In this document: positions 25,145-64,000 of the stretch, in pieces
How the letters are laid out: each line of letters begins with the position of its first letter
How positions within the stretch are numbered: the stretch's first letter is position 1
Assembly (NCBI RefSeq): GCF_000497125.1
Contig: NC_090597.1
Span: 124,001 to 188,000, forward strand
Length of the DNA stretch: 64,000 nt
Source: Spironucleus salmonicida
Lineage: Eukaryota
Reading direction: 5' to 3'
Position numbers and translations under genes: made by a program
The notes under the pieces: generated by a model
Seen by the model: the letters and a program-made list of their open reading frames with translations, nothing else
Database searches by the model: none
Told to the model about the DNA's origin: nothing

Positions 25145-25895
25145 TCACTAAACTTCCTATTTCACCTTCCATGTATCGCTTTCTAGTCCACTGTAGCCTC
25201 TTTTGACCAATTAGTACTACCTATTTATTAAAATCATCACAATAACAGAAAAACCTACAAGAGCAACTGAGATTACGAATATAATCCCAACGTTAACTTT
25301 TATTTCATAACTGCAGTACCTGATGCAGAATCCTCCAGTTTTGACACTCCAAATAGTTGCTATAACCGTATAAGGTACAGTTCTGCTAAAGATCCATACA
25401 GTTGTAGCATATGTCGCTAATTATGACTTTGTAATGTTTACAGACCTATCTTTCTCCGAAAATGGAGTAATTCCAGCCATGCAAAGTTACACTATTGAGG
25501 CTAGCTAAGTTGAGATCTTTCAACGTAAAGTAGGTCAGGCAAGCAGTATACTCGTTGTAATCGTAGGTGGTACAGTTTCTCTGGCTGTTTTAGCACCTGT
25601 ACACGGCGATGATGTCGATATCCTTGCAGTACTGGTTAATTTACAGCGTATTATATTCTAGAATAAGATATTTTAGATCACTGACGAACAGGTAGTGGCC
25701 GCTGCACTTCAGGTAGATAATCGACAAAGAACATACCGCACAGTTCACCAGCTCACCGCAGGAGAGTTACTGCATTAATCCAGTTTTAACGCACTGGGAG
25801 CCCTGACATAGCTGATTTAGGTAGCTTTCATATTTTGCCAGACACGTGCCGTTCTAAATGTATTTTAAGCTATTTTTGGATGAAAAGTAGCCAAT
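25145..25895 (-). pseudogene. Decayed CRMP fragment (duplicate of 148-898)
   Basis: Same sequence as 148-898 apart from isolated substitutions. Confidence 0.75.
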
Positions 25896-29981: not shown

Positions 29982-30341
29982 ATGGCCATTGACAACAAAG
30001 CCAAGTCCAGATCCACCCGTGCCGGTATCATCTTCCCCGTCGGTCGTATCCACAGGCATCTCAAGGAGGGCCGCTACGCCGACCGTATCTCCTCCGACGC
30101 CCCCGTCTACATGGCCGCCATCCTCGAGTCCGTCATCGACGAGGTGTTCAAGGAAGCCCTCAACCAGAAGGACAAGAAGTCCACCAAGCGTATCACCCCC
30201 AACAACATCGTGAACGCCATCCGCAAGGACAAGGAGCTCAACGAGATCTTCAAGGACGTCGTCATCCGCGACGGCGGTGTCGCCAGACTCGAGGACGAGA
30301 AGAAGCACACCTCCAAGTCCAAGAAGTCCCAGGACCAGTGA
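29982..30341 (+). CDS. H2A: Histone H2A, copy 2
   Basis: Protein identical to 4985-5344. Confidence 0.97.
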   Translation: MAIDNKAKSRSTRAGIIFPVGRIHRHLKEGRYADRISSDAPVYMAAILESVIDEVFKEALNQKDKKSTKRITPNNIVNAIRKDKELNEIFKDVVIRDGGVARLEDEKKHTSKSKKSQDQ

Positions 30342-30360
30342 TATATTCTTGTTTACCCTG

Positions 30361-30741
30361 TCACTCCCTCTCGCCCAGGTACTCCGCCACCATGCGAATC
30401 CCGGCGTCCAGCCGCTGCAGCGCGACGCGCATCCCGAGCTGGTCCGCCGTTCCCAGCACGTCCTTCTCCATGGACGTGAACCGCTGGGCCAGCTGCAGAA
30501 TGTCGTGCGCGATGATCGTCACCGGGTCGATCAGGGTGGCCTGCGACAGCTTCCGCAGCAGGTCGTCTGCCGCCAGCCGCAGCTGGTGCATGGCCGGGAA
30601 GGAGATGATGTGGGTGCTGATTTTCTGCTCGAAGTCGAAGCTGGCAAATTGGGACTGCATACCGATGAGCAGGTTGAGCTTGGAGTTTCTGCTCTCCAGC
30701 ATAGCCTGATAGGCCTCGTCTGCGGCATCTACGCTGCTCAT
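30361..30741 (-). CDS. Hypothetical helical protein, 126 aa, convergent with H2A
   Basis: MSSVDAADEAYQAMLESRNSKLNLL..AEYLGERE*; strong GC3 bias, ATG after aaaat, stop in GAGTGA, 19 bp from the H2A stop. Confidence 0.75.
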   Translation of the reverse strand: MSSVDAADEAYQAMLESRNSKLNLLIGMQSQFASFDFEQKISTHIISFPAMHQLRLAADDLLRKLSQATLIDPVTIIAHDILQLAQRFTSMEKDVLGTADQLGMRVALQRLDAGIRMVAEYLGERE

Positions 30742-31290
30742 ATTTTGCGGGATATGATATGTTAATATAAAGTATTCAGAATGTGTGAAAATTATTTTGT
30801 GCAGATAAATATTATACACCGTATACTAATTAGCTACTCTGGACGGATGCGCAGCCCAGGCTATCCAGCAAGACCTGCAAATCAAGCCTCTCACTACTTT
30901 GCCAGTCGTTTGTGTGCATTGTAGCTAGCTTGAACTGCTTCGCTCTCGCTCCAGAAGCCTTATCTGGCGATGGCTGTCCGCTGCGCCAGACTTGCTGCTG
31001 CAAATTACGCAATTTTAACTAAACAGCTACTGCAATGCAGGATAATCGCAGATGCAAGCTAGAACACCTAGCGATTTGCTAGGCTTGATAGTGAACCTGT
31101 AGCGGGCAAGCTATTTTTTCAAACACGATGGAAGTGGATTATTGGCAAAAATGGTATTACTGTATAGGGGCTAGCTAACTATGAGTGCACGTGAGTTCCT
31201 TATCACTGGAGTGTCATATTTCTTATGCTATTTCGCGATTATGCTAATTATTAATATAAATATTATATTATATAGAGAAATTTTCTTTAC

Positions 31291-32343
31291 TCAGATCTCA
31301 TTCCTCTGCACGAGGGTGAGCTCGGTGTGCATTCTCGGCTTCCTGCTGCGCACGGCGAAGGCCACGACACCGATGACCGCGGTCAGGGCGACGACACCGC
31401 CGAGGACGGCACCGATGGTGGCGGCCTGGGAGGCTCTGTTGGCGGGCGCGACGCACTGGTGGGCCTGGAAGAGGTAGCCGGGTCTGCACGCGGCGCAGTA
31501 GCGCTCGTCGCAGGACAGGCACCCCTCGGGGCAGGCGGCGCACTGGCCGGCGGTGGTCTGGCGGAAGCCGACCTCGCACTCGTTGCAGGAGTCGCCGCTC
31601 TGGACCTTGCAGTTGGCGATGCCGCCGGGGACGACTGGTGGATGCGTGGGAGGGTTCACCGAGCCGCAGGAGCTGGCGTCGGTACAGACCCCGGCTGGGG
31701 TGAGGTAGAAGCCGAGCCCGCAACCGAGGCACTCGGAGGTGCTGCAGATGACGCAGCCCTCGGCGCAGGGGACGCAGAGCCCGTTGGTGAGGGCGTGACC
31801 GGGGTGGCACACGAGGCAGCCGTCGGCGCCCTCGATCTGACAGGAGTTGGGCTTGGGCACGCATACGTTGTCCTGGACGGCGAGGCCTTCCTTGCACACG
31901 ACACACTTCTCCTCGTACTGGTAGTCGCAGTTCTTCACGCCGGCGTAGCAGTTGCCGTTGGTGTTGGAGTAGCCAGGCTTGCAGCTGATGCAGCCCGCGG
32001 GGGTGTTGGTCTCGCAGAAGGCGGGGTTGGTGACGCACGTGTTGCCGGCGTTGGCCATGCCGTCCTTGCACACGACGCACTTCTCCTCGTACTGGAACTC
32101 GCAGTTGGCGACAGCCGCGAAGCAGTTGCCGTCCTGTTCGACGTGGCCGGGCTTGCAGGTGGCGCAGCCGTCGATGCCCTGAACGGAGCAGAGGGCGGGG
32201 TTGGTGACGCACTTGTTGTCGGCGACGGCGAAGCCCTCGCGGCAGTTGATGCAGGTGGCCTCGTACTGGAACGCGCAGTTCTTGATGTTGGGGATGCAGG
32301 TGTTGTTCTCGCGGTGGGTGTTGGTCGGGCAGGTCGCGCTCAT
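31291..32343 (-). CDS. GC-rich CRMP, 350 aa, with internal ~50-aa repeats
   Basis: MSATCPTNTHRENN..; three NC[AED][FY]QYE..C..C..G units; TM IGAVLGGVVALTAVIGVVAFAV then RSRK. No TAA/TAG codons; C-rich leader; TGAGTAAA at the end. Confidence 0.9.
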   Translation of the reverse strand: MSATCPTNTHRENNTCIPNIKNCAFQYEATCINCREGFAVADNKCVTNPALCSVQGIDGCATCKPGHVEQDGNCFAAVANCEFQYEEKCVVCKDGMANAGNTCVTNPAFCETNTPAGCISCKPGYSNTNGNCYAGVKNCDYQYEEKCVVCKEGLAVQDNVCVPKPNSCQIEGADGCLVCHPGHALTNGLCVPCAEGCVICSTSECLGCGLGFYLTPAGVCTDASSCGSVNPPTHPPVVPGGIANCKVQSGDSCNECEVGFRQTTAGQCAACPEGCLSCDERYCAACRPGYLFQAHQCVAPANRASQAATIGAVLGGVVALTAVIGVVAFAVRSRKPRMHTELTLVQRNEI

Positions 32344-32641
32344 TGGTAGTGGAGTGGGCGGGTCGGATCGGGGGTATAATACGGTATTAGGCCGATAATC
32401 TATTTCGGACCAAGCTAGAACACCTAGAACTGGTTGATTATCACCGCATCGTGTATAATCCCCAACGATATCTAAACTGACGAACCGTAACACCTGCTAG
32501 GAACCGCCCTCTCTATAATCTTTACCTCACCGCCTCACTCCGTTTTTATTCCAAATATAATAATTATCACTATTATATATTATAAACATACTTTTCACTC
32601 CTTTTTCAAAATTTGCTAATACTCAAATTTTTGTTTTAAAC

Positions 32642-33154
32642 TCATTTTCGAGCGCTGAAAAATGTTATTCCGCGCGTCACGAGCATGCTCCTGCGCGTTT
32701 GGGCCTCGCGAATTTCGGCCTCTGTCCGGCTCAAAATCGCAGAAAAGTCGCGCTCGCACTGCACCAACTGCGGTAGCAGAAACGCGTTTTAGGGCCGCAC
32801 CGCCTGCTGTGTTTTCGGACGAACGGGTGAACGCACGATCTTTTGATGCTGCGTCGGGGGCCGCGCCGTAAGAAATTTTTCTAATTTTCCTTAATTGCAA
32901 ATTGAATTAGATTTTTCGCTCCTTTGTTGTAAAATATTTTCTTATTTTTTACTGAAAAGTGCTAGTTAATACTTCGTTTTCATGATGAAAGCGAGGTGTT
33001 TCTCATAACAATTTTAAAATATTTTCAGGGAGTCAAATTGTCTGAGCGACGGGAATTGCAGGTCAAAATGCGTTAGATTCGACTTCTGCATGAACAATAT
33101 CGAGGTTGGGGAGGTGATTCTGGGCGGTATATTTGGTAGATTTCGGAGACTCAT
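32642..33154 (-). CDS. Hypothetical protein, 170 aa
   Basis: ATG after aaaa, open in code 6 (MSLRNLPNIPPRITSPTSILF..RGITFFSARK*), covers a local GC-rich island. Confidence 0.5.
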
Positions 33155-47968: not shown

Positions 47969-48349
47969 TTTTTGTATCTTTTCTATATTTGTTTTGCTAG
48001 CAGTTTTTGTTCTGGTAAAATTAGAATGAAAATTTACATACAACTTATAAAATACTTGGATAAATTAATATTTAGTATTATATATGATTTGCCTATAATA
48101 AAGTACTGATAAATTCATGATACTTTCCCTATATAATAGGAACATATTTCTAAAACTAAAAAACTAATGTGAATGCTTTTGATGTCAGTTTACATGCATG
48201 CTGCAGTAAATGCTAAGGTAAGTTTAATTAGTGTAGATTATGTCATGAAAAGATAAAAAGTAATTAAAGTCAATATAAATAACATAAAATATCAGAGAGA
48301 AAGAAGAAAAATAAAAATAACTTTTTTCTTATAATAGAATATAAAAAGT

Positions 48350-50455
48350 TTAACATGAAATATTATAGTATATATCATAAGTTTTAAATTCTTTGTTGAT
48401 AATTTTTTCTTAAAATAAGTTTTACAGTATGAAGTGTTAACTACACATTTGTATTAAAAGGGTTTATTGCTGTAATACAGAGAGTTTTAACAGTATTTAT
48501 TTTTAATTTTTCCTATAATTATAGATATTTTTATAACAAGTACTACCATGCCAAAGACTGAAGACCTCTTTATTAAAAAAAATCTAATTTAAGCATATTA
48601 AATAAATCACTTCAAATTATTTCTTATTTCTACAGCAACATTGTAAACTTTCTTTTTCATGAACAAAAATGTGCCGACACAAACTACCCCTACAACTATC
48701 ACTACAGCTATTGTGATTCCTGCGATAGCACCACCGCCCAACTTATTTACAACAACTGGAACTGGTCCTGGAACTGGCGGTGGATCCTAAGTTTCAGACA
48801 ACCAGCACATTTTAGCACGCAATTCGTATCCATCATCGCATTCTGCACATTTGCCAGTTGAGTCAAATTTCATATGCGGCAAACAGGTTGCGCACTTGTT
48901 TTTGGTAGGAGTGCAAGACGCACAATTTATAGCATCACCACATTTGCATTCCGAAGTCAGACCGTCACCACACGCCGTTGGAACACCATTTTTGCAGTAA
49001 TTTCCGTTTTAAATATTTTCGCAAATGGCAGTACATTGTCCTTCTACCGTAGTGACAGCTTTTTCAGGGTGACAGAAATAGCAAATTTGGTCTAAAGAGC
49101 AAAATAAGCAAGGTGTAATACAAGGTATAGACATTTATGTAGCTGGTTCACCTAAATATACTTCTATGGGTTGACAACCATCTTCGCTTTTACAGGGTAA
49201 CTCACAAATGCCGGTATTTTGGTTCTTTTCGTAGCCTTCGGAGCACGTAATGCAAGAATTGTTATCTGTACAGGTATCGCAGTTTGAAGGACAGTCGAGA
49301 CATTTATTATTTGATAAAAATGTATTACGCACGCATTTAGAGCATTGATTTCCCGCACATTCTTGGCAGTTGTATATGGGTTTGCTGTCTTCGCAGTAAC
49401 AACTTTAGCCATATACTATATCTTCAGAGCATGTCCAAGCTTCTGTCATTTTCTGAAAATGGAACTTCGAAATATATTAGTAAACTTGATATAAATGATG
49501 GTATGGATTTTAGTTTTTAAATAGCAATAATACTATATTAATTGTAGTAATATATAATTATTAAATCACAGATTTGATATACTTATCTAAAAATAGATTA
49601 TATTAATATAAATGGTTATATTTACAAATACTTAATTATTACAGAAACTTCATAAATTAACCTATATCTATCTAATAAACACTTTCAGGTTAACAGAATT
49701 TTCATTTAATGAATTATCAGTTTATACATAGGTAATATTATTTTTGTAAAATATAATTTTGAGATTCATTTTATAATTATTATACACATATGATAAGATA
49801 CAAACAGATTATAGTTACTTCATTTATTATAATATATTTAGTGAATTATAAATAATGAACCAATTGGATATAGTGATTGAATAATTTCTGATGCTTCATT
49901 ATAAGTATACTCTCATTAATAACAATACTTAATAGAATAGGTTAAAAGATGCAATTTGCTAAAAATTGGTATTAATAGCTAAATTATGTCAATTAGAAAA
50001 ATAAATTAGTTAAGATATAAATTTCATATTTTATCGGAAGTTCAATATGTGTAGAATTAATTTCTCCCTGATTTGAGTTAAATTTTGGATGTAGCTTGCT
50101 TATTCTAATTAGTTTTATACGAATTAAGTAGTTTTTAGCATTAGATTGATTTTTCAGCATTAATTGTATTAATAAATAGTTGAGCCCAAAATAGTTTAGT
50201 ATAACAGACACAAACTAATTACTTAATAGCTCTAAATTATCATATGATATTTCAAAATGTGCATAATTAGTATTTAGTATATTTTATGAGAACAATTAAC
50301 AAATAGCGAAGTTTTAATTAATAGCTGAAACCGTACAACCACATAGTAATAAATAGCATAGAGAGAATCAAAAAGTCCCTGATCGATCTCAGTTTCAAAA
50401 ACCAATTATGAAAAATTTATTTTAACAAAAGCAAAATGTACCCTATTACTTTTCA
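48350..50455 (+). repeat. Diverged direct duplication (partner ~57865-60045) containing a small CRMP and ~1 kb upstream flank
   Basis: Clearly alignable but diverged throughout, except for an identical core 48468-48712 = 58006-58250. Edges approximate. Confidence 0.8.
48607..49449 (-). CDS. Small CRMP, 280 aa
   Basis: MTEAWTCSEDIVYGQSCYCED..; PPPVPGPVPVV linker, TM GGGAIAGITIAVVIVVGVVCVGTFLFM, tail KKKVYNVAVEIRNNLK*; stop in AAGTGA. Confidence 0.88.
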
Positions 50456-52708
50456 TATTTCTCTTGCGCCTTTTAATGCTACAGAAATTTAGATTTTGCA
50501 TAATTTAAAAATTATTTTGTAAAGCTGTTTTATTATAATTAAAAAGTTCATTTCAAAGTGTATTTAGGCTACAGCGGGTCGTGAGAAATATGAGCTCGTA
50601 TGCGATTGTGTTTCAACGGTCTGCAATATGAAAATAATTCAATGGTATGAACTTTCAAATTCAATATGGCGTTTTATGTATTTGAATCATTTTTCATACC
50701 AATAAGTGAAACTCTAATATTAAGAAAATCCTGACGTCGCAATAAATGCTATGCAAATAAATTGAATAAGAACTAAAATAATATAACAAAAATATAATTA
50801 TCAATATTAAAATACGATAGCAGAAACCTAATCTTATACGTTTAATAAAAAATAATCCTAGTTACGATAATACATATTTTCTTAAATAACAAGTAAAATA
50901 AATATAAAATCTAAACTATAAAATAGTATAATAGAATAATAAATCTGTCAAACTCTAAACTCAATCGCAATACATTTAACATATAAATGATAAATATAAT
51001 AAGCAAAACATTAGCAAAGAATATTTAAGATAGAGTAATAAGCCTCCATCAAAAAAAGAGTAAAATGATATTTATCCGTGTCCGAAAGGCTAAATTTCTT
51101 TATGGTTCGTAACAGAATAATGAAATTATGATGTGTTTTTTTGAAACCATAAATGATCTTTTAGCATTTTTTGATTATGACTTAGTTCTTCAGGGTTATA
51201 TCTAAATGTTAAACTGATTATTCTCTTACTAATGGTATATTACATTCACATACTACCAAATAAGTATTAGGTATATTATTGATGTAGTTATAGACGTGTT
51301 AGCTACGGTTGGTCGAATTGCAGGCTTTGTGGTTATATGTTCATCGTCAAGAAAAAACAACGACCACTTTTAATTAATCATATCAAAAGTTCAATAGTTA
51401 AAATATCTAGTTAGTTGATGCTGATTCAACTAAAGTATGGGGAAAAATAAATTATAATAACTTCATTGTATACTTTTATTTTATTCTACCCGGTGTAATA
51501 ATCTTTATCATACTTAGGTTACCAAAAAAGTATAATCAATAATTAGTTTGGTGCTAAATATCAGAAAATGATGCAAATATTATTATTGTGGAGTATTTAC
51601 ACCCGTATAGAACCGCATTAACACGTTTATTTGAATTCAAATTTCTGCTCGCAAGTTCTAATTCTCTTTAACCCATTGAAGTAGCAGGCAGTAACCCGGA
51701 GTTGGGTCAAGAAATGGAGGGTTTGGCAGTATAGTGATGCCGCGGTGATACAGTTACCTGCCATTATGTGGCATTTTATATTAGGCATAACAGTAAATTG
51801 TAGCATTTAGCAATTTTAGGATTCGCGTTTTGGAGCGTGTCTTGTTAATGAGTTGCTTAGATTGTACCAAGTAAACTGATGAAAATTAGCATTTTCATAT
51901 AAGTAGGGCTGTGTATAATCATAAATTCACGGCTAGCAAGGACTTCGAGGTTGTAGGTTTTAAGGGTTATTCGGTAGAGTCAAGAAAAATCAGTTTGCTA
52001 GGTATAGCAGACGTGTGTTGCTGGACGTGGAATACTAGAATATGGGATATTCTAAAATAGGTAAGAGTCTTGCTAGGGTGCTGGCAGGATGGAAGTGGGT
52101 TTGCATTCTATGTGATTGTGCTGGCCATGCACAGGATGGTTTAATGCATTTTGCTTAGTATAAGAATACAATTTACTTAGGGGTCCTGGTAACATTCCTT
52201 AATTCCTAGGAATGATATTCAAAGGTATTCCATTCTATATTAGATATCAGTTAATACTAGAGATACTTCATGCAAATGATAATTTAATATTAATTATATA
52301 TTATATTAAAATAACTTATTTGTTAATTTAGAAGAGAATGAAATCTACCTAATAGTAGAGCTACCTAAAAGGAATAGTATCCATTAAGCAGGGAATATCA
52401 ATAATGAAATTTCATGTCATTTAAAATAATTCAGCAACATAGAAATAATACATATTGCTTAATGGTATTTGCAGTCTCAATATCGTTTTATTAAAGATTC
52501 GTAAACCATTTCTAGCTGAGTTTTGAAATTTTATTTAGAAAAATACCTTTACTTAAGTTAATAGTCAGTAATATCAAATTCAGTCTATATCCAGGATAAT
52601 TTAAATTAATAATGGTAACAATGATAGAATTGATTTCTGAAAAATCAATTAATAAATTTCACATATTTTGAAGACACTAGAATATTAATGTGCAAAATCA
52701 AATAATTT

Positions 52709-54550
52709 TCACTTCTTCGCCTTCTTGATGAAGTAATACGTTAGAACTCCACCGGCACCACCAGCTACCACTAAAACAGCAATCACAATTTTCGTCACCG
52801 TGCCTCCTGAGAGGCTCACATACTCCTTTCTGGTGGAGAAGCAGAAGGCTCCAGTCTGTTCAGCCCCATCATCGCATTTTTAACATTCATCAGATTCAAA
52901 TTTATATCCAGGCAGGCAGGAACCGCACTTTGTGTTATTATGATTACAGATGAGACAGTTCTTCGCATTTGTACACTTGCACTCAGTTGTCTGGACTTTA
53001 TCTCCACATGTAGCAGCCGAATCACCAATGCATGCATTCCCCTCTGCTAATACTGTACCACAATCAGTCTGACATGTTTAGTGAATAGTAATCTGGTGAC
53101 CAACCTAACATGTATCACACACATCAACTCCCTTGGAACAAGTAGCACAAGTATCGTTGCATTTCTCGCAGACAATTCCCATCATCAGATACCCGTCATC
53201 ACAAATCTAGCATGTACCATCATCAGCCTTTTTATATCCAATAATGCAAGTTCCACATTTTGATTTATTAGAAGCCTCACAAGTAGCACAGTTAACTGCT
53301 TCACCGCACGTGCACTTTTCGGAATTCTTTCCATCACACTCAGTGCAGGTTCCGTCTTAGTTAAAAAAGCCGTCCTTGCAAATTTTACAATAATTTTTAT
53401 CACCGTCACAGTTCACGCAGTTGTTGGGACATGATGAACATTTACCTCCATCTAAGATAAAGCTAGACTCGCACGTCAGGCACGTAGCTACAGAGCCCTT
53501 GCACGTTGCGCAGTTTCCGGTGCAATCTTTGCAGATCGTATCGCAGATTTGGTTAGATTTGCATTCAACCCTGCTGGAGCACTGTTTTATGCATTTATTT
53601 TCTAGTATCGAAAAGCCATCTTTGCACACCGTGCAGGTGTCTTTTTTGCCTGGGCAGGTCTTGCAGTTTGCGTCATCGCAGACTACGCACTTTCCACCTT
53701 TGAGAAAAAATCCGTTCGCGCAAGAGGTGCAAACGGAATTCGAAGTACAGTTTATACAGTTAGCAGAGCAAGCTGTGCAAGTATCACTCCCTGCATCGGT
53801 CCCCTTGAAAAATCCTGGCAAGCAGCTTCCGCAAACGCCAGAATTGCTAGCACCGCATGTTGTGCAATTCTCGGCCATGCCGCACTAGCACTGTTAGTTA
53901 AGATTTTCAGCACATGCAGTACAGGTATTGTTGCTCAGACTGTAGTTATTTTTGCAGAGTTCGCAGGTATCTTTACTTGCAGCGCAATTCGAACAATTCG
54001 TAACTGCGCATGGTTAGCAGGCGGTACCCTAGAGTCTAAAACCAGAATTACATTTTTTACAGGTGTTAAGTTATCCGTCGCAGTTATCGCAATTACGAGC
54101 GGTGCAATGTCTGCATGAAGTACCTACAAGCGCATAACCCTTAGAACAGTTCGTACAATTAACTAACGAACCCACACAACTCGTGCAAGCACTAAAGCAG
54201 GTCAAGCAGAATGTATTGCCACAAATCTGGTTGCTGGCGCAGTCGGACTTAGATGTGCAGGGCGTAACGCAAATATCCCCTCTCGGTCGGTCCCCTTCCC
54301 TGCAACTTGTACAGGTATACTGAGAAGTTGCGCAAGTAAGACATGTGGGGTCGCAGTAGTTACAAGTTTTGCGGGTCGTAAGGTACATTCCAGCACGGCA
54401 AGTTTTGCAAATTGTGTTATCAGCAGAGGTACCTGAGCACGTGAGGCATTCATACTTGCATGGTAGGCAATCAGTGCTGGTCGTAGTTGAGTCTGGGCAG
54501 AAACTGTTCCCTGTGCAGTTGTTAGTAGAGCCAGAGCACGTGCCTAGCAT
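52709..54550 (-). CDS. CRMP1-type cysteine-rich membrane protein, 613 aa
   Basis: MLGTCSGSTNNCTGNSFCP..; continuous frame in code 6; TM followed by terminal KKAKK*, the [KR][KR]x[KR][KR] tail described for Spironucleus CRMP1. Confidence 0.92.
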
Positions 54551-55482
54551 TTTAAGTTTTGTGGGTTTCGCTATAATAGTTATATATGAGTATGTGTAGT
54601 ATTGTTAAGATTTTGTTTTTATAATTAACTTATTATAAATTGTATAGTTAAATTTTAATATCCAAATTTAGAATTAATAGCGTGATTTAAATAAGGATAA
54701 ATATAATATATAAAAAGTAATTAATAGATTTTAGAGGATTTTGAAACATATGCTATAATTAATATTTAATACTTTAATATACATTTTACTTTTATTAAAT
54801 TTAGTATTTCTAGTTTGATAAAATAACAATATTTGCATTTTTCATAAAAATATATTTACTTTAATTGGTAATAGGTAGTAGAAATATATTATTAATTAAA
54901 TTAATCAAATTGTTGAAAATTGATAAATCAATTCATTTCTATTTAAAAAACTATATCAATATTAAGGTTACTTAAATATTTTAGTATTTAAGAATCTTAA
55001 AGCTTTAAATACGTTCATGTTGAATAGGATACAATATTGGAAACTGATATTTTATATAATAGTATTGTTTTATATTCTCACCCATTAGTTGAAAATGAAG
55101 ATTATATAAATTTAATGTTTTGAATAGTGTAAACCTATACCCAAAAATTACCTTAAGGCGTGATTATTGTACTAAAAAGAGTATTATACTCATACATGTT
55201 ACGCTAAACCGTCCAATGGTGCTATTTCTATAATCTCAAAATATTAACACAATAGTATAATTAGTAAAGTATATCCTATAAACAACTTAACTTATTATAA
55301 TATATTTTGAAAAAGTTAAGAAAACTTCCCAGATGTCTAGCATTTGACTAGGAACCTACTAGAAGCCTGGATTTGACATTATAACCATTAATTTAAATCT
55401 TATTGTTTGTAACTTAGATATATATTAAAAATAATAATTTAGAAACTGTACATAATGAAATACTAATGTGTAAAAAATACGT

Positions 55483-56190
55483 TCACCTCTTTCCTTTCTT
55501 GATGAAGTACTACGTAAAACAGCCGCCAACACCCCCTACCACCACCAACGCACCTATCACACCTATCACACTCCCCGTAACCGCACCGCCGGAGAGGTCC
55601 CCAGCCTCCTTGCTGGTTACCAAGCAGAAAATTCAAGTTTAGAATAACCATCTTCGTAATTTTCGCATTTTTCAGATTCAAATTTATATCCAGGGAGGCA
55701 GGAAGCACACTTAGTCTTACTATCATTACATGTGAGATAATTTTCAAAACCTGCAAACTTGCACCCCTCTATCTAGATTTCGCCTCCACACGATGCAGCA
55801 GTCAAAGTTCCAACGCACATGACTTGCCCATTTGATTAGCTGCAGAAACCGTGTATTTACCTCCGGGTATGAAATTCCCATTCGCTCAAACACCGTATTT
55901 GCTTATATCAGTAGAATCGCACGTCTAGCAGGTATGCGATGTTCCGGAGGCGCATTTCATGGTGTCTTAGTAAATGCAGGCAGAGCGATTTATAGCGTCC
56001 CGATTCGTTCAGATTTGACAGGAATTTTATGCGGTGCAGTTTAAGCATTTTGCAGAATTTTTGTCTCTCTTTTGCAGGTTGAGCATTATGATATGCAGGC
56101 GAGGCAGGTCGTATTATCAGTTGATACATGCTATGGGTAGAAGAAAGCTTAAGCGCAGGAAATTGTATTTGAAGCATTTTATCAGTTTGA
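55483..56190 (-). pseudogene. Decayed CRMP1-type gene
   Basis: 3' end LSGGAVTGSVIGVIGALVVVGGVGGCFTQYFIKKGKR*; upstream CASCLPGYKFESEKCENY with frameshifts and Cys>Tyr changes. 5' limit approximate. Confidence 0.7.
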
Positions 56191-56612
56191 TATTTTTTGG
56201 ATGTGAAAATGTGAATAGGTTATAAGTTTGAATAATAATGAGAATTGGTGGTATCGTGTTTTTTGGTTATTGAAGTATACGTGCAATAGGTAAGTGAAAA
56301 TAGCGGATGGGAAAAAGTTTGCGATAGGTATGGAAATTGATATTATATAATGTACGTTAATCAATAAAATTTTACATAAACTAGTAGTAGGTACTAGCCA
56401 CTCGCAGGCTCAAGGTTTGGCAAAAAAATAGTTTTAAAATTTTCAAAACCATCAAAACGCCAGGCATTATTATTTACTAATCAATAAATAAATATTAATC
56501 GATTTATTGCTATAAGGCCATCCAGTAATCATTGATTTCCATTAACTTAACCTGCTCATGGATTGGAGCGCAACACACCGTCTCATATACATACAAAAAA
56601 GTAAAAAAAGTT

Positions 56613-57729
56613 TCACATTCCACACCATGTCAACGTTTTGGTTACTATCTAAAATCGATTATCAACCAACTTGATGAGATCTTTTCGTTTATTATTTTTC
56701 AAAACTCTATTAATTAATTCTTATAAATAAATCTTACATACTTTAGATGAAGTTGAATAGTTCTCTTACAGAATCGTATCTAAAATAACCATCGTGTTGT
56801 ACAGTCTGACGTCGACCTATTTCTTGCCTTTAAAACAATACTCTGATAACGCTACAACTTATTCAACCATATCATACAATAGCCTGTCTGTTAATTTTAA
56901 CGAAATATATCTTGCCATTAGTATTTTCCTATAATGTCCAAACTTAGCATTGTTACTATCATCCTCAAACTTTAATAAAACTGATTGCATATTATTAGAA
57001 TTAACTTGACTGAAGTTTAGTTTAATTGGAGGTTCAACATCATAACTTTTTAGAAGTACTTCAGTATTCTTGATAACCTCTTATGAGTAGTCTTCTAAGG
57101 TATCTTATTTTTATAGAACTGATATCGCTTCTTTGTAAGTTGGCTTTGATTCTTGCTCTTTAACTACTGCTTATCTATTCATTTTATTTATAAAAAAAAG
57201 ATTTCTTTAAAAAGATATGTTATAATTATTATTCTTGGACCCTTTTGGATCCGGAAGACATAGCATACCATATTATTAAAGAAAGTATATTTAGTTATTC
57301 AAAAATACAATTCTATTGAATGTTGTTCAATATTTGAAATAGCTTTAACTTCAGATTTAGATAGTAAATATTATACTTATAGTATGATCCAAATTTGCAT
57401 GTTTCTATCTTATTAATTATTATATACTTACTATAGTCTTGATTAGTTTTAAGTACATTAAGGGCATGATAATAAATCTATTGTTCAAGTTGTTAAGGCA
57501 GTACTTCTATTACTTCTTTATCTTTATTAATTAATCTTATTTATTCAACTTTGCTACATACCTTATTACTTACGAATTTATATTTAGGGTTAGCTTTAAT
57601 ATTTATTGATAATGGTTCATTATTTACTATTAGTTCGATGAAGGCTAGCTCATCGATGTTATTTAATTCTTTTAATACTTTTTCATTTAAGAACTTAACT
57701 ATTTTATTACATATTAAAAGATGACTCAT
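56613..57729 (-). CDS. Hypothetical: two overlapping ORFs (57729-57061, 222 aa; 57182-56613, 189 aa), possibly one frameshifted gene
   Basis: Both frames are TGA-free in code 6 (MSHLLICNKIVKFLNEK..; MNRQAVVKEQESKPTYKE..); no motif recognised. Confidence 0.4.
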
Positions 57730-57864
57730 ATAAATTTTAAAAATAAAAAATTCTAATCACTTAACCTATATATCAAAATTTATGAATATTATTGGGTCTG
57801 GTTAAATAATTATATCTAAAAAATAATATTTTTACACTTATAATACAATATAAAAGCATAAACT

Positions 57865-60045
57865 GAAATACTATAGTATATATATCATAATTTTTAATTT
57901 GTTGCAAATAAATTTTTTTTCTAAAAGTATGTCTTAGGGTCCTAAGTGTCAGCTCTATTTTTCCATTTACATTTAATACATAGTTGTTGTATTAAAAGGA
58001 TGTAATGCTGTAATACAGAGAGTTTTAACAGTATTTATTTTTAATTTTTCCTATAATTATAGATATTTTTATAACAAGTACTACCATGCCAAAGACTGAA
58101 GACCTCTTTATTAAAAAAAATCTAATTTAAGCATATTAAATAAATCACTTCAAATTATTTCTTATTTCTACAGCAACATTGTAAACTTTCTTTTTCATGA
58201 ACAAAAATGTGCCGACACAAACTACCCCTACAACTATCACTACAGCTATTATTATTCCTGTGATAGCACCACCACCCAACGTATTTATAACTGGTGGATC
58301 AGAGTTTTCAGACAACCAGCACATTTGACTACGTAATTTGTATCCATCCTCGCATTTTGCACATTTGCCACTTGAGTCAAATTTCCAATGCGGCAAACAC
58401 ATTTAGCACTTGTCCTAGGTTTGATTACAAGAAGCACAATTTGAAGCTTTCCCACATTTGCACTCTGATGTCAGACCTTCACCACAAGCCGTTGGAACAC
58501 CATCTTTGCAGTAATTTCCGTTTTAAATATTTTAGCATTTCTTAGTGCATTATCCTTCTACCGTAATGATAGATATATCAGGATTGCAGAAATGGCAAGT
58601 TGTACCTGAAGAGCACTTCACACAATTTTCAATGCAAGATTAACAAATTTATGTAGCTGGATTACAAAAACCTTATCCGATGTTCAGACAACCATCTGAA
58701 TTTTCACAGGATTACTCACAATTGCCTGTCTATGGGTGCTTTTTGTAGCCATTGGAGCACGTAATACAAGAATTCCTGTTTTCACATATATCGCAGTCTA
58801 AAGGACAGTATTCACATTTGTTATTTTATAAAAATGTTTAAGGCATGCATTTAGAGCACTGTTTCCCCTTACATTCTTGGCAGTTGTATATGGGTGTATT
58901 GGCTTCACAGTAACAACCTTAACCAAAAAACATACCTTCAGAGCATGGCTTACAATTTACGGTTCTTGAGTCTTCTGCAGGGCAGAAATGTCCAGCCTTG
59001 CAGGTGAAGACTTTATTTGAGCATGTACCAGTTTCTGTCATTTTCTGAAAATAGAACTTTGAAATATATTATAATAAACTTGATCTAAATGATGGTATGG
59101 ATTTTAGTTTTTAAGCAGCAATAATATTATATTAATTATAGTAATATATAATTATTAAATCACAAATTTGAGATACTCATGCAAAAATAGATTATATTAA
59201 TATAAATGGTTATATTTAAATATTAAATTATTACTGAAACTTGATAAATTAGCATATATCTATCTAATAAACCCTTTCAGTTTAGCAGAGTTACTATTTA
59301 ATGAATTGTTAGTTTATATATAATTCATGTTAACTTTAGTAAACATAATTTGTGGATTCATTTTGTAATTATTATATCCATACTGTAATTTAAAAATTTG
59401 TTATACTTATTTTATTATTATAATATGTTTTGATTAATTCTAAATAATGAAACAATTGGATATATGTTGATTGAATAATTTCTAACGCAATTATACTGTC
59501 ATTCAATAACAATACTTAGTAGAATGAGTTAAAGATGCAATTTTCCAGCAATTTAATAAATAGCTAGATTATATCCATTAAGAAAAAATAAATTAGTTAA
59601 AATATAAATTTCATACTTTATCAGAAATTCAATGAGCATAAAATTTATTTCTCGCTGATTTGCGTTACATCTGGATGTAACTTGCTTATTCCAATGAATT
59701 TTATACGAATAAACTAGGCTTTGGGGTTACATTGAATTTTCAGCATCTATTGTATTAATATATAATTGAGCACAAAATAGTCTAGTATAAATGACACAAA
59801 ATAATTGCATAATACCTTTAAATTATCATATACTATTTTAAAATTTGCGTAATTAGTATTTAGTATATTTTATGAAAACAATTAGCAAATAGCTATAAGT
59901 TTTAATTAATAGCTGCTATCCTACAACAATATAGTAGGAAATCGAACAGAGAGAAGCAAAAAGGTGATAATCAATTTTAGTCTCAAAAACCAATTATGAA
60001 CAATTTATGTTAACAAAACATAAAAGCTCGCACATTACTTTTCAT
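57865..60045 (+). repeat. Diverged direct duplication, second copy
   Basis: Alignable to ~48350-50455. Confidence 0.8.
58145..59041 (-). CDS. Small CRMP, 298 aa
   Basis: MTETGTCSNKVFTCKAGHFCPAED..; same tail as the 48607 gene (KKKVYNVAVEIRNNLK*); no in-frame TGA. Confidence 0.9.
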
Positions 60046-60443
60046 TTGACCCATTCACAAGGAACCATTTTCATTGTTATAGAGAATGATGCTACCTGTT
60101 TATAAGTATCTATAGTTACTGTGTATGTTAAAAAATCTTCAATAATTAATAAAAATATACAGTATCTTAATTAGGTGAATCGAATTTCTAAGTTACAGTA
60201 AATTCATTTGGCGATAGAAAAGCATTTAAAGTATACTAAAAACGGAATGTTAAAATCTATATTATTTTATATAATTAATCAAATATTTTTATAAACCAAA
60301 ATGAAGAGGATCATTCAGATATAGAATTATAGTAAGAACTTAGACATATTTACAAGTGAATATAAGAGCAATAATATTGGATAAGTTTGATTATATTTAT
60401 CCATCAAAGGTAAATGATTTATTATTATTAATTTGTTAAATGA

Positions 60444-63400
60444 ATAATAAATCTAACTCAAGTCATTATAATATAAGTATTGACTTTAAATAATATATAA
60501 TTATTTATTGATAAAAATATAGACAATATTAGTATTGCTATATTCATTAAAATTTATGTCACTGAAGTAAAAATTGTTTAGATAAATCAAATTAGTATGG
60601 TGTATTTTTGTAATTCTTATCATGAAATACCAAACAATAATAATAGTTTTTAATATTAATATTATAAAAAGAAATTATATCGCACACCAGATGAAAAATA
60701 TAAGACTAAACATAATATAGTTAATTACGAATTTCAAAAATGTTTATATTGTAAAACCATTCATAATTTTAAAACGAAATGTTTATAGTAATTAAATAAT
60801 GAAATATTTTATTTTAAAGAATGCTAATTACAAATATAATAAAAATCAAACTTAACTTGGGACATAGAAAGCTTGGTTGATAACATTTCAGAAGTATTAC
60901 AAGATAAATATTCACTGTAACATTTACCATTTTTGGTAACATGGAATATACTTGTATATGACAAAAAATAAAAATCATATAAATGAGCATAATATATTTA
61001 TGCTATTAATCTTAGATTAAAAGAGCCAGGTAATTATTTATTATTAACATCAATAATGAAAATAGGCCAACAGTGCAATATTTTATAAGTACATAGCAAC
61101 AATAACCTACTAAATTTGAAAATAAGCGATATAGAATTTAAAAATTCTTTTGCAATTATACCAGCACCATTAGCAAAATTAAATAAATATCTATCTTTAA
61201 ATCTTGCAATTGGGAAACAACTGTAATCATACATATTTCAAACTAAAGAGTTACTTGCGATATATATTTAAAATGGACGTAAATTCAAAATAATAAAAGA
61301 ATTAATAGATAAAAATATACTTCAGCCAAAACATTTAAAGAACTTATCAAATGATGAATTTAATTAATACGTAATTGCCTATATAGATATTAATTTTATT
61401 GATTAGTATATAAATTATTGTATTCAAGATAGCTTTATTTTGAGCAAAGCAGTCGATAAATAAAATACCATTTTAGTTCAAGAATAAGGTGTAAATATTA
61501 TTAATTATTTAAATGGACCATCAATGGCGATGAATATATTTATAAATTTCGCTAATACTGATATTTAAAGTGGATATTATTATTAAAAACATAATAAATC
61601 ATATATGAGCATCGATTATCACAATTAATTAAATCATATAAATAACGAAATATTGAAATGGTGTTTAAATTATTAAATATAAATTTTAAGAAAATATCAA
61701 ATGCTTTGATCGATTAAAAATTTGATGGAACGAGATATAATATTGACAAAGTATTTACTGCGGATAACAAGAAATACGATCTGGAATTATACAGAATATT
61801 TGATCACGAACTAAAAGAATTACCTGAAATTGATAAATATTACAAATTATAATGAAATGTAAAATAATCTCACGACAAAAAATTAGATTTATTAGACATA
61901 ATGTAGTTTAATGCCTTCGAAAATATGTTCCATGTAACAGATATTGATTTTATCAAATTTTAAAAAGTCAACAATATATAATTTGCAATACCTAAAAAAT
62001 TCAACATTACTAATAGATCAATTTTAGCTGCCTGAAGAACTGAATGTTTGACACATTACAAGGAAATAAATAAAATCATACATATAATCTACATAATTTA
62101 GTTTATATCTCTATACTAATTTTGAATGTTATTCAGAGATTTACCTTTAAGAGATTTAGCTGTTGGAAGTCTATCTGGCAACACTGTTTATATTTCACAG
62201 CATCATAAGCAATCTAAGATTTCTTAGTATAAATTTAAAATGAATTTTAATATATAGACAACTTAATTAGATATGTACAGTTAATTAAATATGTTGAAAT
62301 ATAAATGCAATAAAAATTTACAGCTGAAGAAAAATTATAATTCTTCTAATAGGTAGTCACAATTATCAAAGAATAATTGAAATCAAATATTAAATGATAC
62401 CAATTTAAAAATTAACATATCCCGTTTTAGGAAGTATTATTTGCAGTAAATTATTATTCCTTCTTTGCAGATCATACTCGAAATAGAAATATTTGGCGAA
62501 ATATACGAAACACATACTTACTAAACTACAAGGTTTAACGAAAAAAATTATAAAGGTGTTTTTTTATAAAATCATAGATGTTTAGCAAAACATTAAATTC
62601 AGATTAAGCTGATTACACAAATGAATACTTTTTAGAATAATTAACAGAAGATTGTAACTTTGATTATAAATATGTTGACGGAATAGCTTACATAAAATAA
62701 AAATATTATCTGGAGTTTATAGAAATCAAATTACATTAAGTGATAAAGACGTTTTATAAATTATTATTAAATACAACTTATGGCAAAATAGAATAGAACG
62801 TTATAAGACCATCAGTATCATTTGATAGAGGTGATTTTGCATTTAATAAATATGATGAATAATTGCACAAAGATTGCAAGATATAAATAATTGGTTAAAA
62901 CATGTTTAAGAATAATTATAGTTACGAAGAATAATTATAGCAAGCACAAATATCTTAATCAAACACATCTTTCGCAGGAAAAATTAATTCTGTCGCAAGA
63001 ACAATGTTGTATACTTTAATCTGCTTTGTAGTAGCAAATTACCATTCATTAGCTCGTAAAGCAGCAGAGGTGAGTTTCAGAAAAACTATCACAATTTTAT
63101 CATTAGGTTTTCGCAAACAATAAAATCACGACACCTTTATCAAAACTCAATTAGCTGTTTTATAAAATACTCAATTGAAACTTACTACCAGTAAATTATT
63201 GTGAACTATATCATTCATAGTTGATACCAAAAGTATCATCTGCTAAATCAAGAATAGAAATGCTATCAAGTCTGATCAAAGAGCAAAATGTTGTTTAAGT
63301 TATGCTATGTAAAGCCAAAAAAAGATGAAATAAAAAATAAATACAAGTATGTTTTAACGGTTAATGAGGTGTCCAAACTAATTACTCACAATGATATAAC

Positions 63401-63590
63401 AGTAAATTTAGAAGTGGGACAATAATATAATTAACCGTTTAATGCTGTCAGTGGTTGAGCCAGTATATTTGGTAAACTTGGTTCCGTAGTAGAGCCAATC
63501 GCAAGGCAGTTAGCATACTTGTAGAATGTTAGTTATAAACTAATAAATTCTGTAATCTTATACTCTTTTAAAAATAGTAATTATTGAAAA
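60444..63590 (+). mobile_element. Decayed protein-primed family B DNA polymerase (Polinton/Maverick-, virus- or linear-plasmid-type relic)
   Basis: In order (code 6): CLYCKTIHNFKTKC (60741), ExoI-like TWDIES (60855-60872), ExoII-like YIYAIN, IEFKNSFAIIPAPLAKL (~61131), ExoIII YCIQD (61416-61430), RSILAA*RTE (62015-62044), motif A-like QFISLYQF*M..LP (62099), motif B YKLLLNTTYGK (62755-62787), SFAGKINSVARTML (62968), motif C-like IIHS/DTKSII (63210-63240). Multiple TGA and frameshifts; limits approximate. Confidence 0.8.
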
Positions 63591-64000
63591 ATCTTTATCT
63601 CATTGGTGACTAGAGTTTTTGTGCCCTTATTACATCTGGTTGAAGCGTTGTTTGGAAAACCATTTAATTTATATAATATGAGCAGGAACAGATTCATTTT
63701 GTGGAGATTATGACATGCCTGGTGGAAGCATATTTTGGGGAAGTTCCCTTTTATTAAGACAATAAATGATGGAAGACAAAGATAAATAAAATATAATTAA
63801 GGTTGCAAATTAAAATTAATCTATTATTGAATATGTTGATAGGATATATTAAAAATAAACTTTAACTGTAAAAAAACGATTCAAATTTATGTTTAAATTA
63901 TAATAATTAGACACAGCAGATGTATTAAATTTTTATAATATAAAATTAATTTTTATAGTCTGAGTAATAATTATAATAATTTATTTGATACTGATAGAAT

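What the first reader, a model, noticed from the sequence alone, without database searches (positions are those of the whole stretch)
60444..63590. Hidden fossil of a protein-primed DNA polymerase B (Polinton/virus-like) in a diplomonad surface-antigen region
Seen: 3 kb that look empty in the ORF track translate in code 6 to the ordered motif set WDIES, FKNSF..P..L..L, YCIQD, R....*RTE, SLY..*M....LP, KLLLNTTYGK, INSVAR and S/DTKS. Established: KxxxNSxYGK, GGRTE, IT..AR and F.DS...P..L..L are hallmarks of protein-primed PolB of Polintons/Mavericks, adenoviruses and linear plasmids, whereas cellular replicases typically lack this combination. Mavericks are well known in Trichomonas. Inference: an endogenised self-synthesising element or DNA virus, now dead because the catalytic Asp of motifs A and C are eroded. 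Many TAA/TAG codons lie in otherwise continuous frames, suggesting it used the host code and so replicated in a hexamitid. I do not know whether this family is described.
Basis: partly seen in the sequence, partly recalled or inferred. Interest (0 to 1): 0.85.

Follow-up and report, generated by a model that had tools for sequence, protein, structure and literature searches.

The report
Dead virus-type DNA polymerase gene fragment
This stretch is the badly decayed, truncated remains of a DNA polymerase gene of the kind carried by Maverick/Polinton virus-like elements, lodged in a chromosome of the fish parasite Spironucleus salmonicida; it is real but non-functional, and it belongs to a kind of element already known.

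Summary
The core observation holds. [quoted passage not shown] Read with code 6 it matches Spironucleus salmonicida proteins at E=6e-23, 5e-18 and 5e-48. Those proteins match PF03175 proteins. A profile of six non-Spironucleus relatives picks only this region among 1020 six-frame segments of the window (E=1e-5).

The eighth, "S/DTKS", does not: that DNA lies beside or within a [FeFe]-hydrogenase pseudogene fragment (63191-63569).

The relic has 7 frame changes and 7 in-frame TGA codons, and is cut at both ends. The family carries the VSR-nuclease insertion said to mark group I Mavericks (PMC10328495). One relative's contig also holds an rve integrase. No integrase, capsid gene or terminal repeat is visible in the window.

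TAA/TAG codons in the relic sit at conserved Gln positions 25:6 over CAA/CAG, while His and Pro controls show 1:19. So the gene was once read in the host's code.

Polinton-type pPolBs are already in print for Giardia. Verdict: real and ordinary, a new member of a known kind.

The parts
60064..60201 (+). Left-most detectable piece (codon phase: start mod 3 = 1). It is the remnant of the Cys-box of the N-terminal Cys/His domain that precedes the exonuclease in this pPolB family.
   Evidence: tblastn with P0007 residues 167-212: 33% identity, collinear with the next two pieces, set E=7e-41. The same P0007 region aligns to the metagenome pPolB profile (hhalign prob 95.4%, E=1.9e-8).
60239..60580 (+). 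N-terminal domain continued (His-box region), phase 2. In-frame TGA at 60302, 60509 and 60563.
   Evidence: P0007 226-340, 32% identity. TGA positions.
60576..61601 (+). Cys-rich (zinc-finger-like) stretch and the 3'-5' exonuclease domain, phase 0.
- Exo I, WDIES: 60858-60872.
- Exo II remnant: 60999-61046. The Asn is kept; the Asp is lost.
- F-K-N-S-F..P..L..L block: from 61137.
- Exo III, YCIQD: 61416-61430.
- In-frame TGA at 60984.
- About 40 residues between Exo I and Exo II are missing relative to P0007.
   Evidence: tblastn with P0007 340-564, P0003 11-122 (E=2e-17) and P0001 5-117 (53% identity). P0005 is 34% identical and itself matches PF03175 at E=7.9e-6. Non-Spironucleus HMM hit at E=1.1e-5.
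61607..62245 (+). Linker with the VSR-endonuclease-like insertion (about 61733-61822); the GGRxE-type motif (RTE 62036-62044, preceded by TGA 62033); and motif A (62099-62125). In motif A the Asp position is a TAG (Gln) codon, and a TGA sits at 62123. Phase 2. A further TGA lies at 61853.
   Evidence: P0001 112-292 at 45% identity and P0013 1-200 at 45% identity. The A3 profile hits Vsr endonucleases 1vsr/1odg/1cw0 at E about 3e-3 over these columns.
62251..62557 (+). Palm/TPR1-side region read in three phases: 62251-62343 (phase 1), 62343-62498 (phase 0) and 62465-62557 (phase 2). The phase-0 piece is the remnant of the LPP..L..PVL...LCRTC block. About 25-36 residues are deleted between the last two pieces.
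   Evidence: P0015 194-245 at 56% identity, P0014 269-318 at 50%, P0015 271-301 at 48%. Non-Spironucleus proteins P0019 and P0016 hit 62382-62492 directly (E=0.002 and 0.034). HMM E=0.013.
62563..63030 (+). Fingers/palm region, phase 1, with no TGA. Motif B (KLLLNTTYGK) at 62758-62787. I-N-S-V-A-R block at 62983-63000. This is the last detectable pPolB sequence.
   Evidence: P0015 304-410 at 61% identity; P0013 338-492. In the tree this piece groups with P0013/14/15 at 100/100 support.
57819..60045 (.). Left neighbour, not part of the relic. This block holds a Cys-rich membrane protein gene (58148-59041, -). It is duplicated from 48313-50456 at 79-82% identity and ends 19 bp before the relic begins.
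   Evidence: Self-blastn. The protein is exactly in the collection.
63191..63569 (+). Right neighbour, not part of the relic. This is a frameshifted, 5'-truncated fragment of an [FeFe]-hydrogenase gene.
   Evidence: Pfam PF02906 Fe_hyd_lg_C: E=6.1e-8, 33 bits against a cut-off of 22.1, for 63191-63328. A second piece at 63321-63569 scores E=0.043.

Best explanation
[quoted passage not shown] It belongs to a multi-copy Spironucleus salmonicida gene family whose nearest outside relatives are Maverick/Polinton-type pPolBs carrying a VSR-nuclease insertion.

The living ancestor probably encoded a polymerase of about 1,300 residues, laid out in this order: N-terminal Cys/His domain, zinc-finger-like stretch, 3'-5' exonuclease, VSR-like nuclease insert, then polymerase palm and fingers. 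By analogy with phi29, adenovirus and Polinton enzymes, it would have copied a linear element starting from a protein primer.

The gene was translated in the diplomonad code (TAA/TAG = Gln), so the element lived in this host lineage for a long time. This copy then decayed to spacer composition (18-28% GC). It lost its 5' end at a segmental-duplication boundary and its 3' end (motif C, thumb) next to a hydrogenase gene fragment. It has no function now.

Shown: homology, family, lesions, boundaries, codon evidence. Inferred: protein priming, the Maverick nature of the parent element, and the order of events.
For: 1. Homology of the relic to S. salmonicida proteins.
- P0001 E=6.3e-23, P0002 4.6e-18; P0013 E=4.6e-48.
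- Under tblastn code 6 the pieces are collinear over 60064-63030.

2. Those proteins are pPolBs.
- All 4 non-Spironucleus hits of P0013 (of 7 hits in all) carry PF03175. I re-scanned them: E=6e-22, 6e-55, 4e-17, 1e-30.
- P0007 against the 35-row profile A3: hhalign prob 95.4%, E=1.9e-8.
- Profile A3 hits phi29 polymerase 1xhx at E=5e-6.
- The five best Foldseek hits of the P0013 model are all phi29 polymerase (E=4e-4 to 1e-3).

3. Direct test without Spironucleus sequences: HMM E=1.1e-5. The top five of 1020 window segments all lie in the relic.

4. Maverick link.
- VSR hits at E about 3e-3. A passage in PMC10328495 states that a ~140-aa VSR insertion distinguishes group I Mavericks.
- Relative L010 has the pPolB plus an rve integrase (E=1.7e-12) and a weak Adeno_IVa2 match (E=0.005) on one contig.

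5. Pseudogene state: 7 frame changes, 7 in-frame TGA in 985 path codons, two internal deletions. No motif C.

6. Host code.
- At 46 positions where all aligned paralogs have Gln, the relic has TAA/TAG 25 times, CAA/CAG 6 times and another codon 15 times.
- At His and Pro positions the T-first versus C-first counts are 1 and 19. Fisher p=6e-8.

7. Multi-copy family: named S. salmonicida members lie on contigs of 1,673,122 and 1,732,135 bp, plus several older gene models. In trees of 32 rows each, the relic branches separately inside a 100/100 Spironucleus clade.
Against: - Pfam does not detect the relic (0 of 5 pieces at E<=1). It also fails on paralogs P0013, P0014, P0015, P0007, P0011, P0001 and P0002.
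- PDB phmmer and PHROGs with the relic give nothing relevant.
- The P0013 model is poor (mean pLDDT 52). TM-scores to phi29 are only 0.25, so TPR1/TPR2 could not be judged.
- No integrase, capsid, ATPase or protease signal in 54839-57819 or 63030-64000. No convincing terminal inverted repeats: the 21 pairs found are short, AT-rich and 70-90% complementary.
- IMG/VR holds no confirmed relative (0 of 9 pattern hits, twice).
- The metagenome relatives were fetched with a pattern that requires the LCRTC block. That set is therefore biased and contains no named reference Mavericks.
- The Spironucleus clade sits on a very long branch, 1.7-3.6 changes per column.
- The neighbourhoods of the other S. 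salmonicida copies could not be read.
- Read-level confirmation of the indels was not obtained. Read laying did not complete.
Confidence: 0.78

Rival explanations
1. The parent was not an integrase-bearing Maverick/Polinton. It was another pPolB carrier, such as a Polinton-like or adintovirus-like virus or a linear plasmid, and a piece of it was captured by chance in the chromosome.
For: Nothing but polymerase sequence survives here. No integrase or capsid signal appears in the flanks and no terminal repeats. Both ends are truncated.
Against: The VSR insertion is described as a mark of group I Mavericks (PMC10328495 passage). A relative sits on a contig with an rve integrase. No relative was confirmed among 2.9 million viral contigs. 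The family is multi-copy in the host genome.
Confidence: 0.12
2. The family is a set of host-kept, Polinton-derived polymerase genes without the rest of the element, as reported for Entamoeba histolytica. The window holds a dead paralog of such a gene.
For: Passages in PMC3511435 report four Polinton-type family B2 polymerases in E. histolytica with no integrase, protease or ATPase found. S. salmonicida members are annotated as proteins, one named 'DNA-directed DNA polymerase' by UniRef. Adaptation to the host code fits long residence.
Against: - The annotated members are fragments of 248-668 residues against 1,100-1,500 for full-length relatives.
- Adjacent gene models split one polymerase: SS50377_16877/16878 and 26222/26223.
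- P0013 lacks the motif A Asp and has a degraded motif B.
- Several divergent lineages coexist: P0013 against P0015 is 56% identical, and the relic is separate. This looks like repeated proliferation and decay.
Confidence: 0.08
3. Chance motifs in AT-rich spacer DNA that is open under code 6.
For: TGA depletion by itself is unremarkable. Other AT-rich windows show 1-5 TGA in their best frame. Standard libraries are silent.
Against: E-values of 1e-18 to 1e-48 against a library of billions of proteins. Collinear matches over 3 kb. The rest of the window serves as a control and gives nothing.
Confidence: 0.01

Closest known systems
Group I Maverick/Polinton protein-primed PolB with a VSR-endonuclease insertion (Kapitonov & Jurka 2006, as cited in a passage of PMC10328495). 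Also the VSR-bearing pPolB2 subgroup of a marine nematode and molluscs (passages of PMC10748475).
   Same: Exo I-III and Pol A/B motif order, with a VSR-like insert between the exonuclease and polymerase parts. Relatives carry PF03175, and one has an rve integrase beside it.
   Different: Only 21-26% identity to the 32 non-Spironucleus rows of alignment A3, and a very long branch. Read in code 6. No integrase, capsid genes or terminal repeats were seen for the Spironucleus copies. Assignment to pPolB1/pPolB2 or group I/II was not tested with named references.
Polinton-type pPolBs of other anaerobic protists: Giardia intestinalis (legend of Fig. 6 in PMC4642659; passage in PMC3511435), Entamoeba histolytica/invadens (PMC3511435), and Trichomonas vaginalis and Tritrichomonas foetus (PMC10748475 passage: 388 and 259 copies).
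   Same: Endogenous pPolB genes of Maverick type in parasitic protists, including another diplomonad. E. histolytica likewise shows polymerases without the rest of the element.
   Different: I saw no sequence from those organisms, so relatedness is untested. Giardia uses the standard code (recalled). Here TAA/TAG encode Gln.
S. salmonicida paralogs: SS50377_16877/16878, 11834, 11845/11846, 26222/26223, 25155, and UniRef V6LEG1 'DNA-directed DNA polymerase'.
   Same: Same family and same clade (100/100 support). Identity is 33-61% over the aligned pieces.
   Different: The window copy is not among the family members that my searches returned. It is far more decayed, is truncated at both ends, and forms its own branch.
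Bacteriophage phi29 DNA polymerase (PDB 1xhx, 2pzs).
   Same: It is the only polymerase hit of the family profile in the PDB (E=5e-6) and gives the top five fold matches.
   Different: About 12% identity. phi29 lacks the N-terminal Cys/His domain, the zinc-finger-like stretch and the VSR insert.

Membership tests
[quoted passage not shown] | Significant profile match to the family. | tested here: inconclusive
   Pfam itself finds no hit for the relic at E<=1. Indirect and custom tests are positive. P0005 is 34% identical to the relic and scores 25.4 bits against a cut-off of 25.8. P0013 leads to four PF03175 proteins. A custom HMM of six PF03175-type proteins hits the relic at E=1.1e-5.
[quoted passage not shown] | Exonuclease motifs Exo I (DxE), Exo II (Nx2-3[FY]D) and Exo III (Yx3D) in order. 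| tested here: met
   Exo I (WDIES, 60858-60872) and Exo III (YCIQD, 61416-61430) are intact. Exo II keeps its Asn but has lost its Asp; paralog P0007 has AHNAAAYD. The order is as in the 35-row alignment.
[quoted passage not shown] | Polymerase motifs A (DxxSLYP), B (KxxxNSxYG) and C (YxDTDS). | tested here: not met
   Motif A is present, but its Asp position is a TAG (Gln) codon and a TGA follows (62099-62125). Motif B is recognisable (62758-62787). Motif C is not detectable; paralog P0013 has YGDTDS. This failure fits a pseudogene rather than a different family.
[quoted passage not shown] | TPR1 and TPR2 insertions specific to protein-primed enzymes; use of a terminal protein. | tested here: inconclusive
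   The AlphaFold2 model of P0013 has mean pLDDT 52. Foldseek ranks phi29 polymerase first (prob 0.98-1.00) but with TM 0.25. Priming itself is not testable with these tools.
Maverick/Polinton element | pPolB together with a retroviral-type (rve) integrase. | tested here: not met
   No rve signal in six-frame Pfam scans of 54839-57819 and 63030-64000. The window ends at 64000, and the relic is truncated by unrelated DNA on both sides. The relative L010 does have rve.
Maverick/Polinton element | Double jelly-roll major capsid protein, penton protein, packaging ATPase and adenain-like protease. | tested here: not met
   None is seen in the window flanks by Pfam. Such divergent genes could escape Pfam, as the polymerase itself does.
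Maverick/Polinton element | Terminal inverted repeats and a 5-6 bp target duplication. | tested here: not met
   In 54000-64000 only short, AT-rich inverted pairs of 20-37 nt and 70-90% complementarity were found. The ends of the element are not preserved.
Group I (VSR-bearing) Maverick pPolB | A ~140-aa VSR-endonuclease-like insertion between the exonuclease and polymerase parts (definition from the PMC10328495 passage). | tested here: met
   Profile A3 hits 1vsr, 1odg and 1cw0 at E=2.7e-3 to 3.6e-3 over profile positions 696-773. P0013 and the relic (about 61733-61822) align in those columns. The E-values are modest, and the Spironucleus version is shorter and degenerate.

The most novel reading that the evidence does not exclude
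Spironucleus salmonicida carries its own lineage of VSR-bearing (vertebrate-type, group I) Mavericks that was recoded to TAA/TAG = Gln. The lineage may have been acquired long ago from a fish host or a co-habiting animal. The younger copies may still belong to complete, perhaps still mobile, virus-like elements. The window copy would then be the oldest visible trace of that invasion.
Probability: 0.15. Interest if true: 0.6.

Novelty: new member of a known kind. Interest (0 to 1): 0.3.

Why it matters
The fragment itself does nothing. Its value is as a marker in three ways.

- It shows that a Maverick-type polymerase family has lived in the Spironucleus lineage long enough to adopt the host's variant genetic code, and to leave copies of very different ages.
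- Standard profile libraries miss the whole family. Repeat and virus surveys of diplomonads therefore probably under-count such elements.
- The VSR insertion links the family to the Maverick group said to include the vertebrate elements, and this parasite lives in fish. That makes host-to-parasite transfer a testable question.

Polinton-type polymerases are already reported from Giardia, Entamoeba and Trichomonas, so this extends a known pattern rather than opening a new one.

Tried and rejected
**Searches with the relic that gave nothing relevant**
- Pfam on five relic pieces: no polymerase family at E<=1.
- PDB phmmer on both halves: only unrelated hits with E>=0.019.
- PHROGs: nothing relevant.
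- The search for homologous proteins for the C half among longer proteins: 0 of 4549 candidates.
- Two of the six hits were dropped as spurious: P0004 (a repeat protein) and P0006 (ankyrin repeats).

**Collection scans**
- IMG/VR, twice: 9 pattern hits, 0 confirmed each time.

**Motif C and the thumb**
- A C-terminal profile against six frames of 62900-64000 found nothing.

**A possible second relic at 49659-49832 (-)**
- P0002 scores E=0.016 in the whole window and 0.001 in a 4-kb subset. A second weak piece is not collinear, so I treat this as chance.

**An OTU-like protease reading of the N-terminal Cys/His domain**
- This was a resemblance recalled from memory. Pfam gives no such hit at E<=1, so it is left as unknown.

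**Flank scans**
- Pfam finds nothing in 54839-57819.

**Sequencing runs**
- The look-up of sequencing runs: no RNA holder is listed. Four DNA runs of one study hold 96-100% of the sampled words, but three of those runs may be the source of this DNA.
- Read laying did not complete. Neither the indels nor transcription were checked.

**Structure**
- The model of P0013 is of low confidence.

**Literature**
- Only one paper each pairs Spironucleus with Polinton or with Maverick. I read the Polinton one (PMC12198294) and its two mentions are unrelated to each other. I saw the Maverick one (PMC3111441) only in the search listing.
- Two papers pair diplomonad with Polinton (one occurrence of each term; search listing only).
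- A term search of the S. salmonicida genome paper (PMC3916229) gives 0 occurrences of 'DNA polymerase', 'virus' and 'transpos'.
- The Hexamita genome paper (PMC11787283) has 0 occurrences of Maverick or Polinton.
- Supplementary tables were closed, in particular tables S2/S3 of PMC10748475, which list genomes with integrase-linked pPolBs. They might name S. salmonicida.
Full report
**What is there**

Under code 6 it contains long stop-free stretches.

Standard tools gave no support at first:
- Pfam found no polymerase family in any of five relic pieces at E<=1.
- phmmer against the PDB returned only unrelated weak hits.
- PHROGs gave nothing relevant.
- TGA depletion in the chosen frames (3 against 13-14, and 3 against 8-16) is not unusual for AT-rich parts of this window.

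An exhaustive HMMER search with the N half changed the picture. It returned six hits:
- P0001 (E=6.3e-23), P0002 (4.6e-18), P0003 (2.8e-8) and P0005 (2.0e-4) look real.
- P0004 and P0006 are repeat proteins, and I discard them.

P0001 and P0002 are Spironucleus salmonicida hypothetical proteins with several near-identical siblings. P0005 scores 25.4 bits on PF03175 against a cut-off of 25.8.

The C half matches one protein among 4515 candidates: P0013, a 668-residue S. salmonicida protein that UniRef names 'DNA-directed DNA polymerase' (E=4.6e-48, 39% identity).

**Host**

Seven window ORFs translated with code 6 are in the protein collection letter for letter, on a contig of 1,877,751 bp. A paralog on that contig is named Palmitoyl-protein thioesterase [Spironucleus salmonicida].

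The window is full of Cys-rich membrane protein genes with short basic tails, several of which hit the Giardia VSP family. This matches the CRMP description in passages of PMC3916229. It is also riddled with segmental duplications.

**Is the family a protein-primed PolB?**

Pfam is blind to the Spironucleus proteins themselves. Other evidence is consistent:
- P0013 finds seven proteins. The four that are not from Spironucleus all carry PF03175. I confirmed this: E=6e-22, 6e-55, 4e-17 and 1e-30.
- A metagenome scan returned 105 confirmed relatives of 112 pattern hits, of which 80 loci were kept.
- Alignment A3 has 35 rows: P0013-P0019 plus 28 of the 42 long ORFs found in those loci. As a profile it hits phi29 DNA polymerase at E=5e-6. 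It also hits three Vsr endonuclease entries at about 3e-3, over the stretch between the exonuclease and polymerase parts.
- P0007, the N-terminal Spironucleus protein, aligns to that profile with probability 95.4% (E=1.9e-8). The match covers a Cys/His N-terminal domain, a Cys-rich stretch, Exo I and Exo II.
- The AlphaFold2 model of P0013 is poor (mean pLDDT 52). Even so, its five best PDB matches are all phi29 polymerase (E=4e-4 to 1e-3, TM about 0.25). Archaeal PolBs follow at E>0.3.
- As a direct test free of Spironucleus sequences, an HMM of six full-length relatives was scored against 1020 overlapping six-frame segments of the whole window. The five best hits all lie in the relic, in collinear order (E=1.1e-5, 5.8e-4, 0.013, 0.017, 0.67). 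Everything else has E>1.

**Anatomy and lesions**

tblastn under code 6 maps the homology to 60064-63030. The path changes phase seven times: 1, 2, 0, 2, 1, 0, 2, 1. It contains seven in-frame TGA codons, at 60302, 60509, 60563, 60984, 61853, 62033 and 62123. It also contains 60 TAA/TAG codons among 985 codons.

Relative to the paralogs, two stretches are missing:
- about 40 residues between Exo I and Exo II;
- about 25-36 residues after the LCRTC block.

In motif A the catalytic Asp position is a TAG (Gln) codon, read directly from the sequence.

The eighth motif, 'S/DTKS', is not supported. A profile of the C-terminal part (motif C, KxY, thumb) finds nothing in 62900-64000.

Boundaries:
- On the right, 63191-63569 is a frameshifted fragment of an [FeFe]-hydrogenase gene (PF02906, E=6.1e-8, above the curated cut-off).
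- On the left, a block that duplicates 48313-50456 at 79-82% identity ends at 60045, 19 bp before the first detectable polymerase residue.

The relic is therefore cut at both ends, and no other element gene adjoins it. Pfam scans of 54839-57819 and 63030-64000 in six frames show no integrase, capsid, ATPase or protease. No credible terminal repeats are present.

**Which kind of element?**

- The VSR-like insert is informative. A passage of PMC10328495 states that group I Mavericks, which include the vertebrate elements, differ from group II by a ~140-aa VSR-like insertion, citing Kapitonov and Jurka 2006.
- Passages of PMC10748475 describe a VSR domain in one pPolB2 subgroup of a marine nematode and molluscs.
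- One relative's contig (L010) has, beside its 1212-residue PF03175 polymerase, an rve integrase (E=1.7e-12) and a weak Adeno_IVa2-type match (E=0.005). That is the Maverick gene set.
- Trees of two contiguous relic pieces were built, with 32 rows each. The rows were those of A3 that fill at least 60% of the piece, plus the relic. The relic falls inside a 100/100 Spironucleus clade as its own branch. That clade is separated from the metagenome sequences by 1.7-3.6 changes per column. The second tree is the quick version only.
- No named reference Mavericks were available, so placement within published groups is untested.
- IMG/VR holds no confirmed relative.

**Host code**

Among 838 aligned path codons, 53 are TAA/TAG, and 30 of those face Gln in at least one paralog.

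| Paralog residue at position | Positions | Relic C-first codon | Relic T-first codon | Other |
|---|---|---|---|---|
| Gln (all aligned paralogs) | 46 | 6 (CAA/CAG) | 25 (TAA/TAG) | 15 |
| His | 17 | 10 | 0 | 7 |
| Pro | 16 | 9 | 1 | 6 |

The His and Pro rows serve as a control for C-to-T decay at the first codon base. Such decay is rare there, so it cannot explain the Gln result (Fisher p=6e-8). The TAA/TAG codons were therefore Gln codons of the working gene.

Host genes in the window use TAA/TAG for 12-76% of their Gln codons. The element thus evolved for a long time in a host with this code.

**Prior knowledge**

In the library searched:
- No paper in the searches links Spironucleus, Hexamita or diplomonads substantively with Polintons or Mavericks. 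Of the four co-occurrence papers I opened only PMC12198294; the others I saw as search listings.
- By term search, the S. salmonicida genome paper does not mention DNA polymerases, viruses or transposons.
- The Hexamita paper reports 29 DNA transposons in S. salmonicida by RepeatMasker, without classes (passage).
- However, the legend of Fig. 6 of PMC4642659 lists Giardia intestinalis among the protein-primed polymerases in its tree.
- Passages of PMC3511435 speak of Polinton-Maverick polymerases of Giardia and Trichomonas, and of solitary ones in Entamoeba histolytica.
- PMC10748475 reports hundreds of copies in parabasalids.
- PMC10120064 notes capsid genes in Streblomastix, which shares this genetic code.

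Supplementary tables were closed, and they might list S. salmonicida.

**Verdict**

This is a real, dead fragment of a Maverick-type protein-primed polymerase gene. It belongs to an under-annotated S. salmonicida family that standard profiles miss. It is a new member of a known kind.

Two points go beyond the routine: the evidence of adaptation to the host code, and the VSR link to the Maverick group that includes vertebrate elements. Interest is modest.

Noticed in passing
window 63191-63569 (+): A frameshifted, 5'-truncated fragment of an [FeFe]-hydrogenase large-subunit gene (PF02906: E=6.1e-8 for 63191-63328, and 0.043 for 63321-63569 in another frame). It sits directly right of the polymerase relic.
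   Followed up: partly
window 1-5545 / 24998-30542; 7305-8861 / 10993-9437; 12925-18197 / 24739-19467; 29890-31226 / 37487-36151; 48313-50456 / 57819-60045: The window is a patchwork of direct and inverted segmental duplications at 79-99.9% identity. They carry Cys-rich membrane protein genes and a palmitoyl-protein thioesterase gene.
   Followed up: partly
P0007 residues about 164-330; window 60064-60580: The S. salmonicida polymerases and the metagenome Maverick-type polymerases share an N-terminal domain with a conserved Cys box and a His box, ahead of the zinc-finger-like stretch (hhalign). Pfam gives it no name. It resembles a cysteine protease only by recollection, which was not tested.
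   Followed up: partly
S. salmonicida proteins P0001/P0011 (SS50377_16877/16878) and P0007/P0015 (SS50377_26222/26223): Adjacent gene models each hold a different part of one polymerase. P0013 lacks the motif A Asp and has a degraded motif B. The 'younger' copies therefore also look broken, or split by annotation.
   Followed up: no
P0019 (457 aa, 2529-bp contig): A PF03175 polymerase with the Maverick-type LCRTC block is labelled 'MAG: DNA polymerase [Lactococcus garvieae]' by its source. It is probably a eukaryotic element's contig binned into a bacterial genome. This is inference.
   Followed up: no
window 30001-32700: A GC-rich island (57% GC in 30001-32000) with long overlapping ORFs on both strands. 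One has a low-complexity Gly/Ala/Asp/Val-rich translation with no Pfam hit.
   Followed up: no
window 49659-49832 (-): A weak match to the Exo I-II region of P0002 (31% over 58 residues; E=0.016 in the window, 0.001 in a 4-kb subset). It lies inside the older duplicated block. A second weak piece is not collinear, so this is probably chance.
   Followed up: partly
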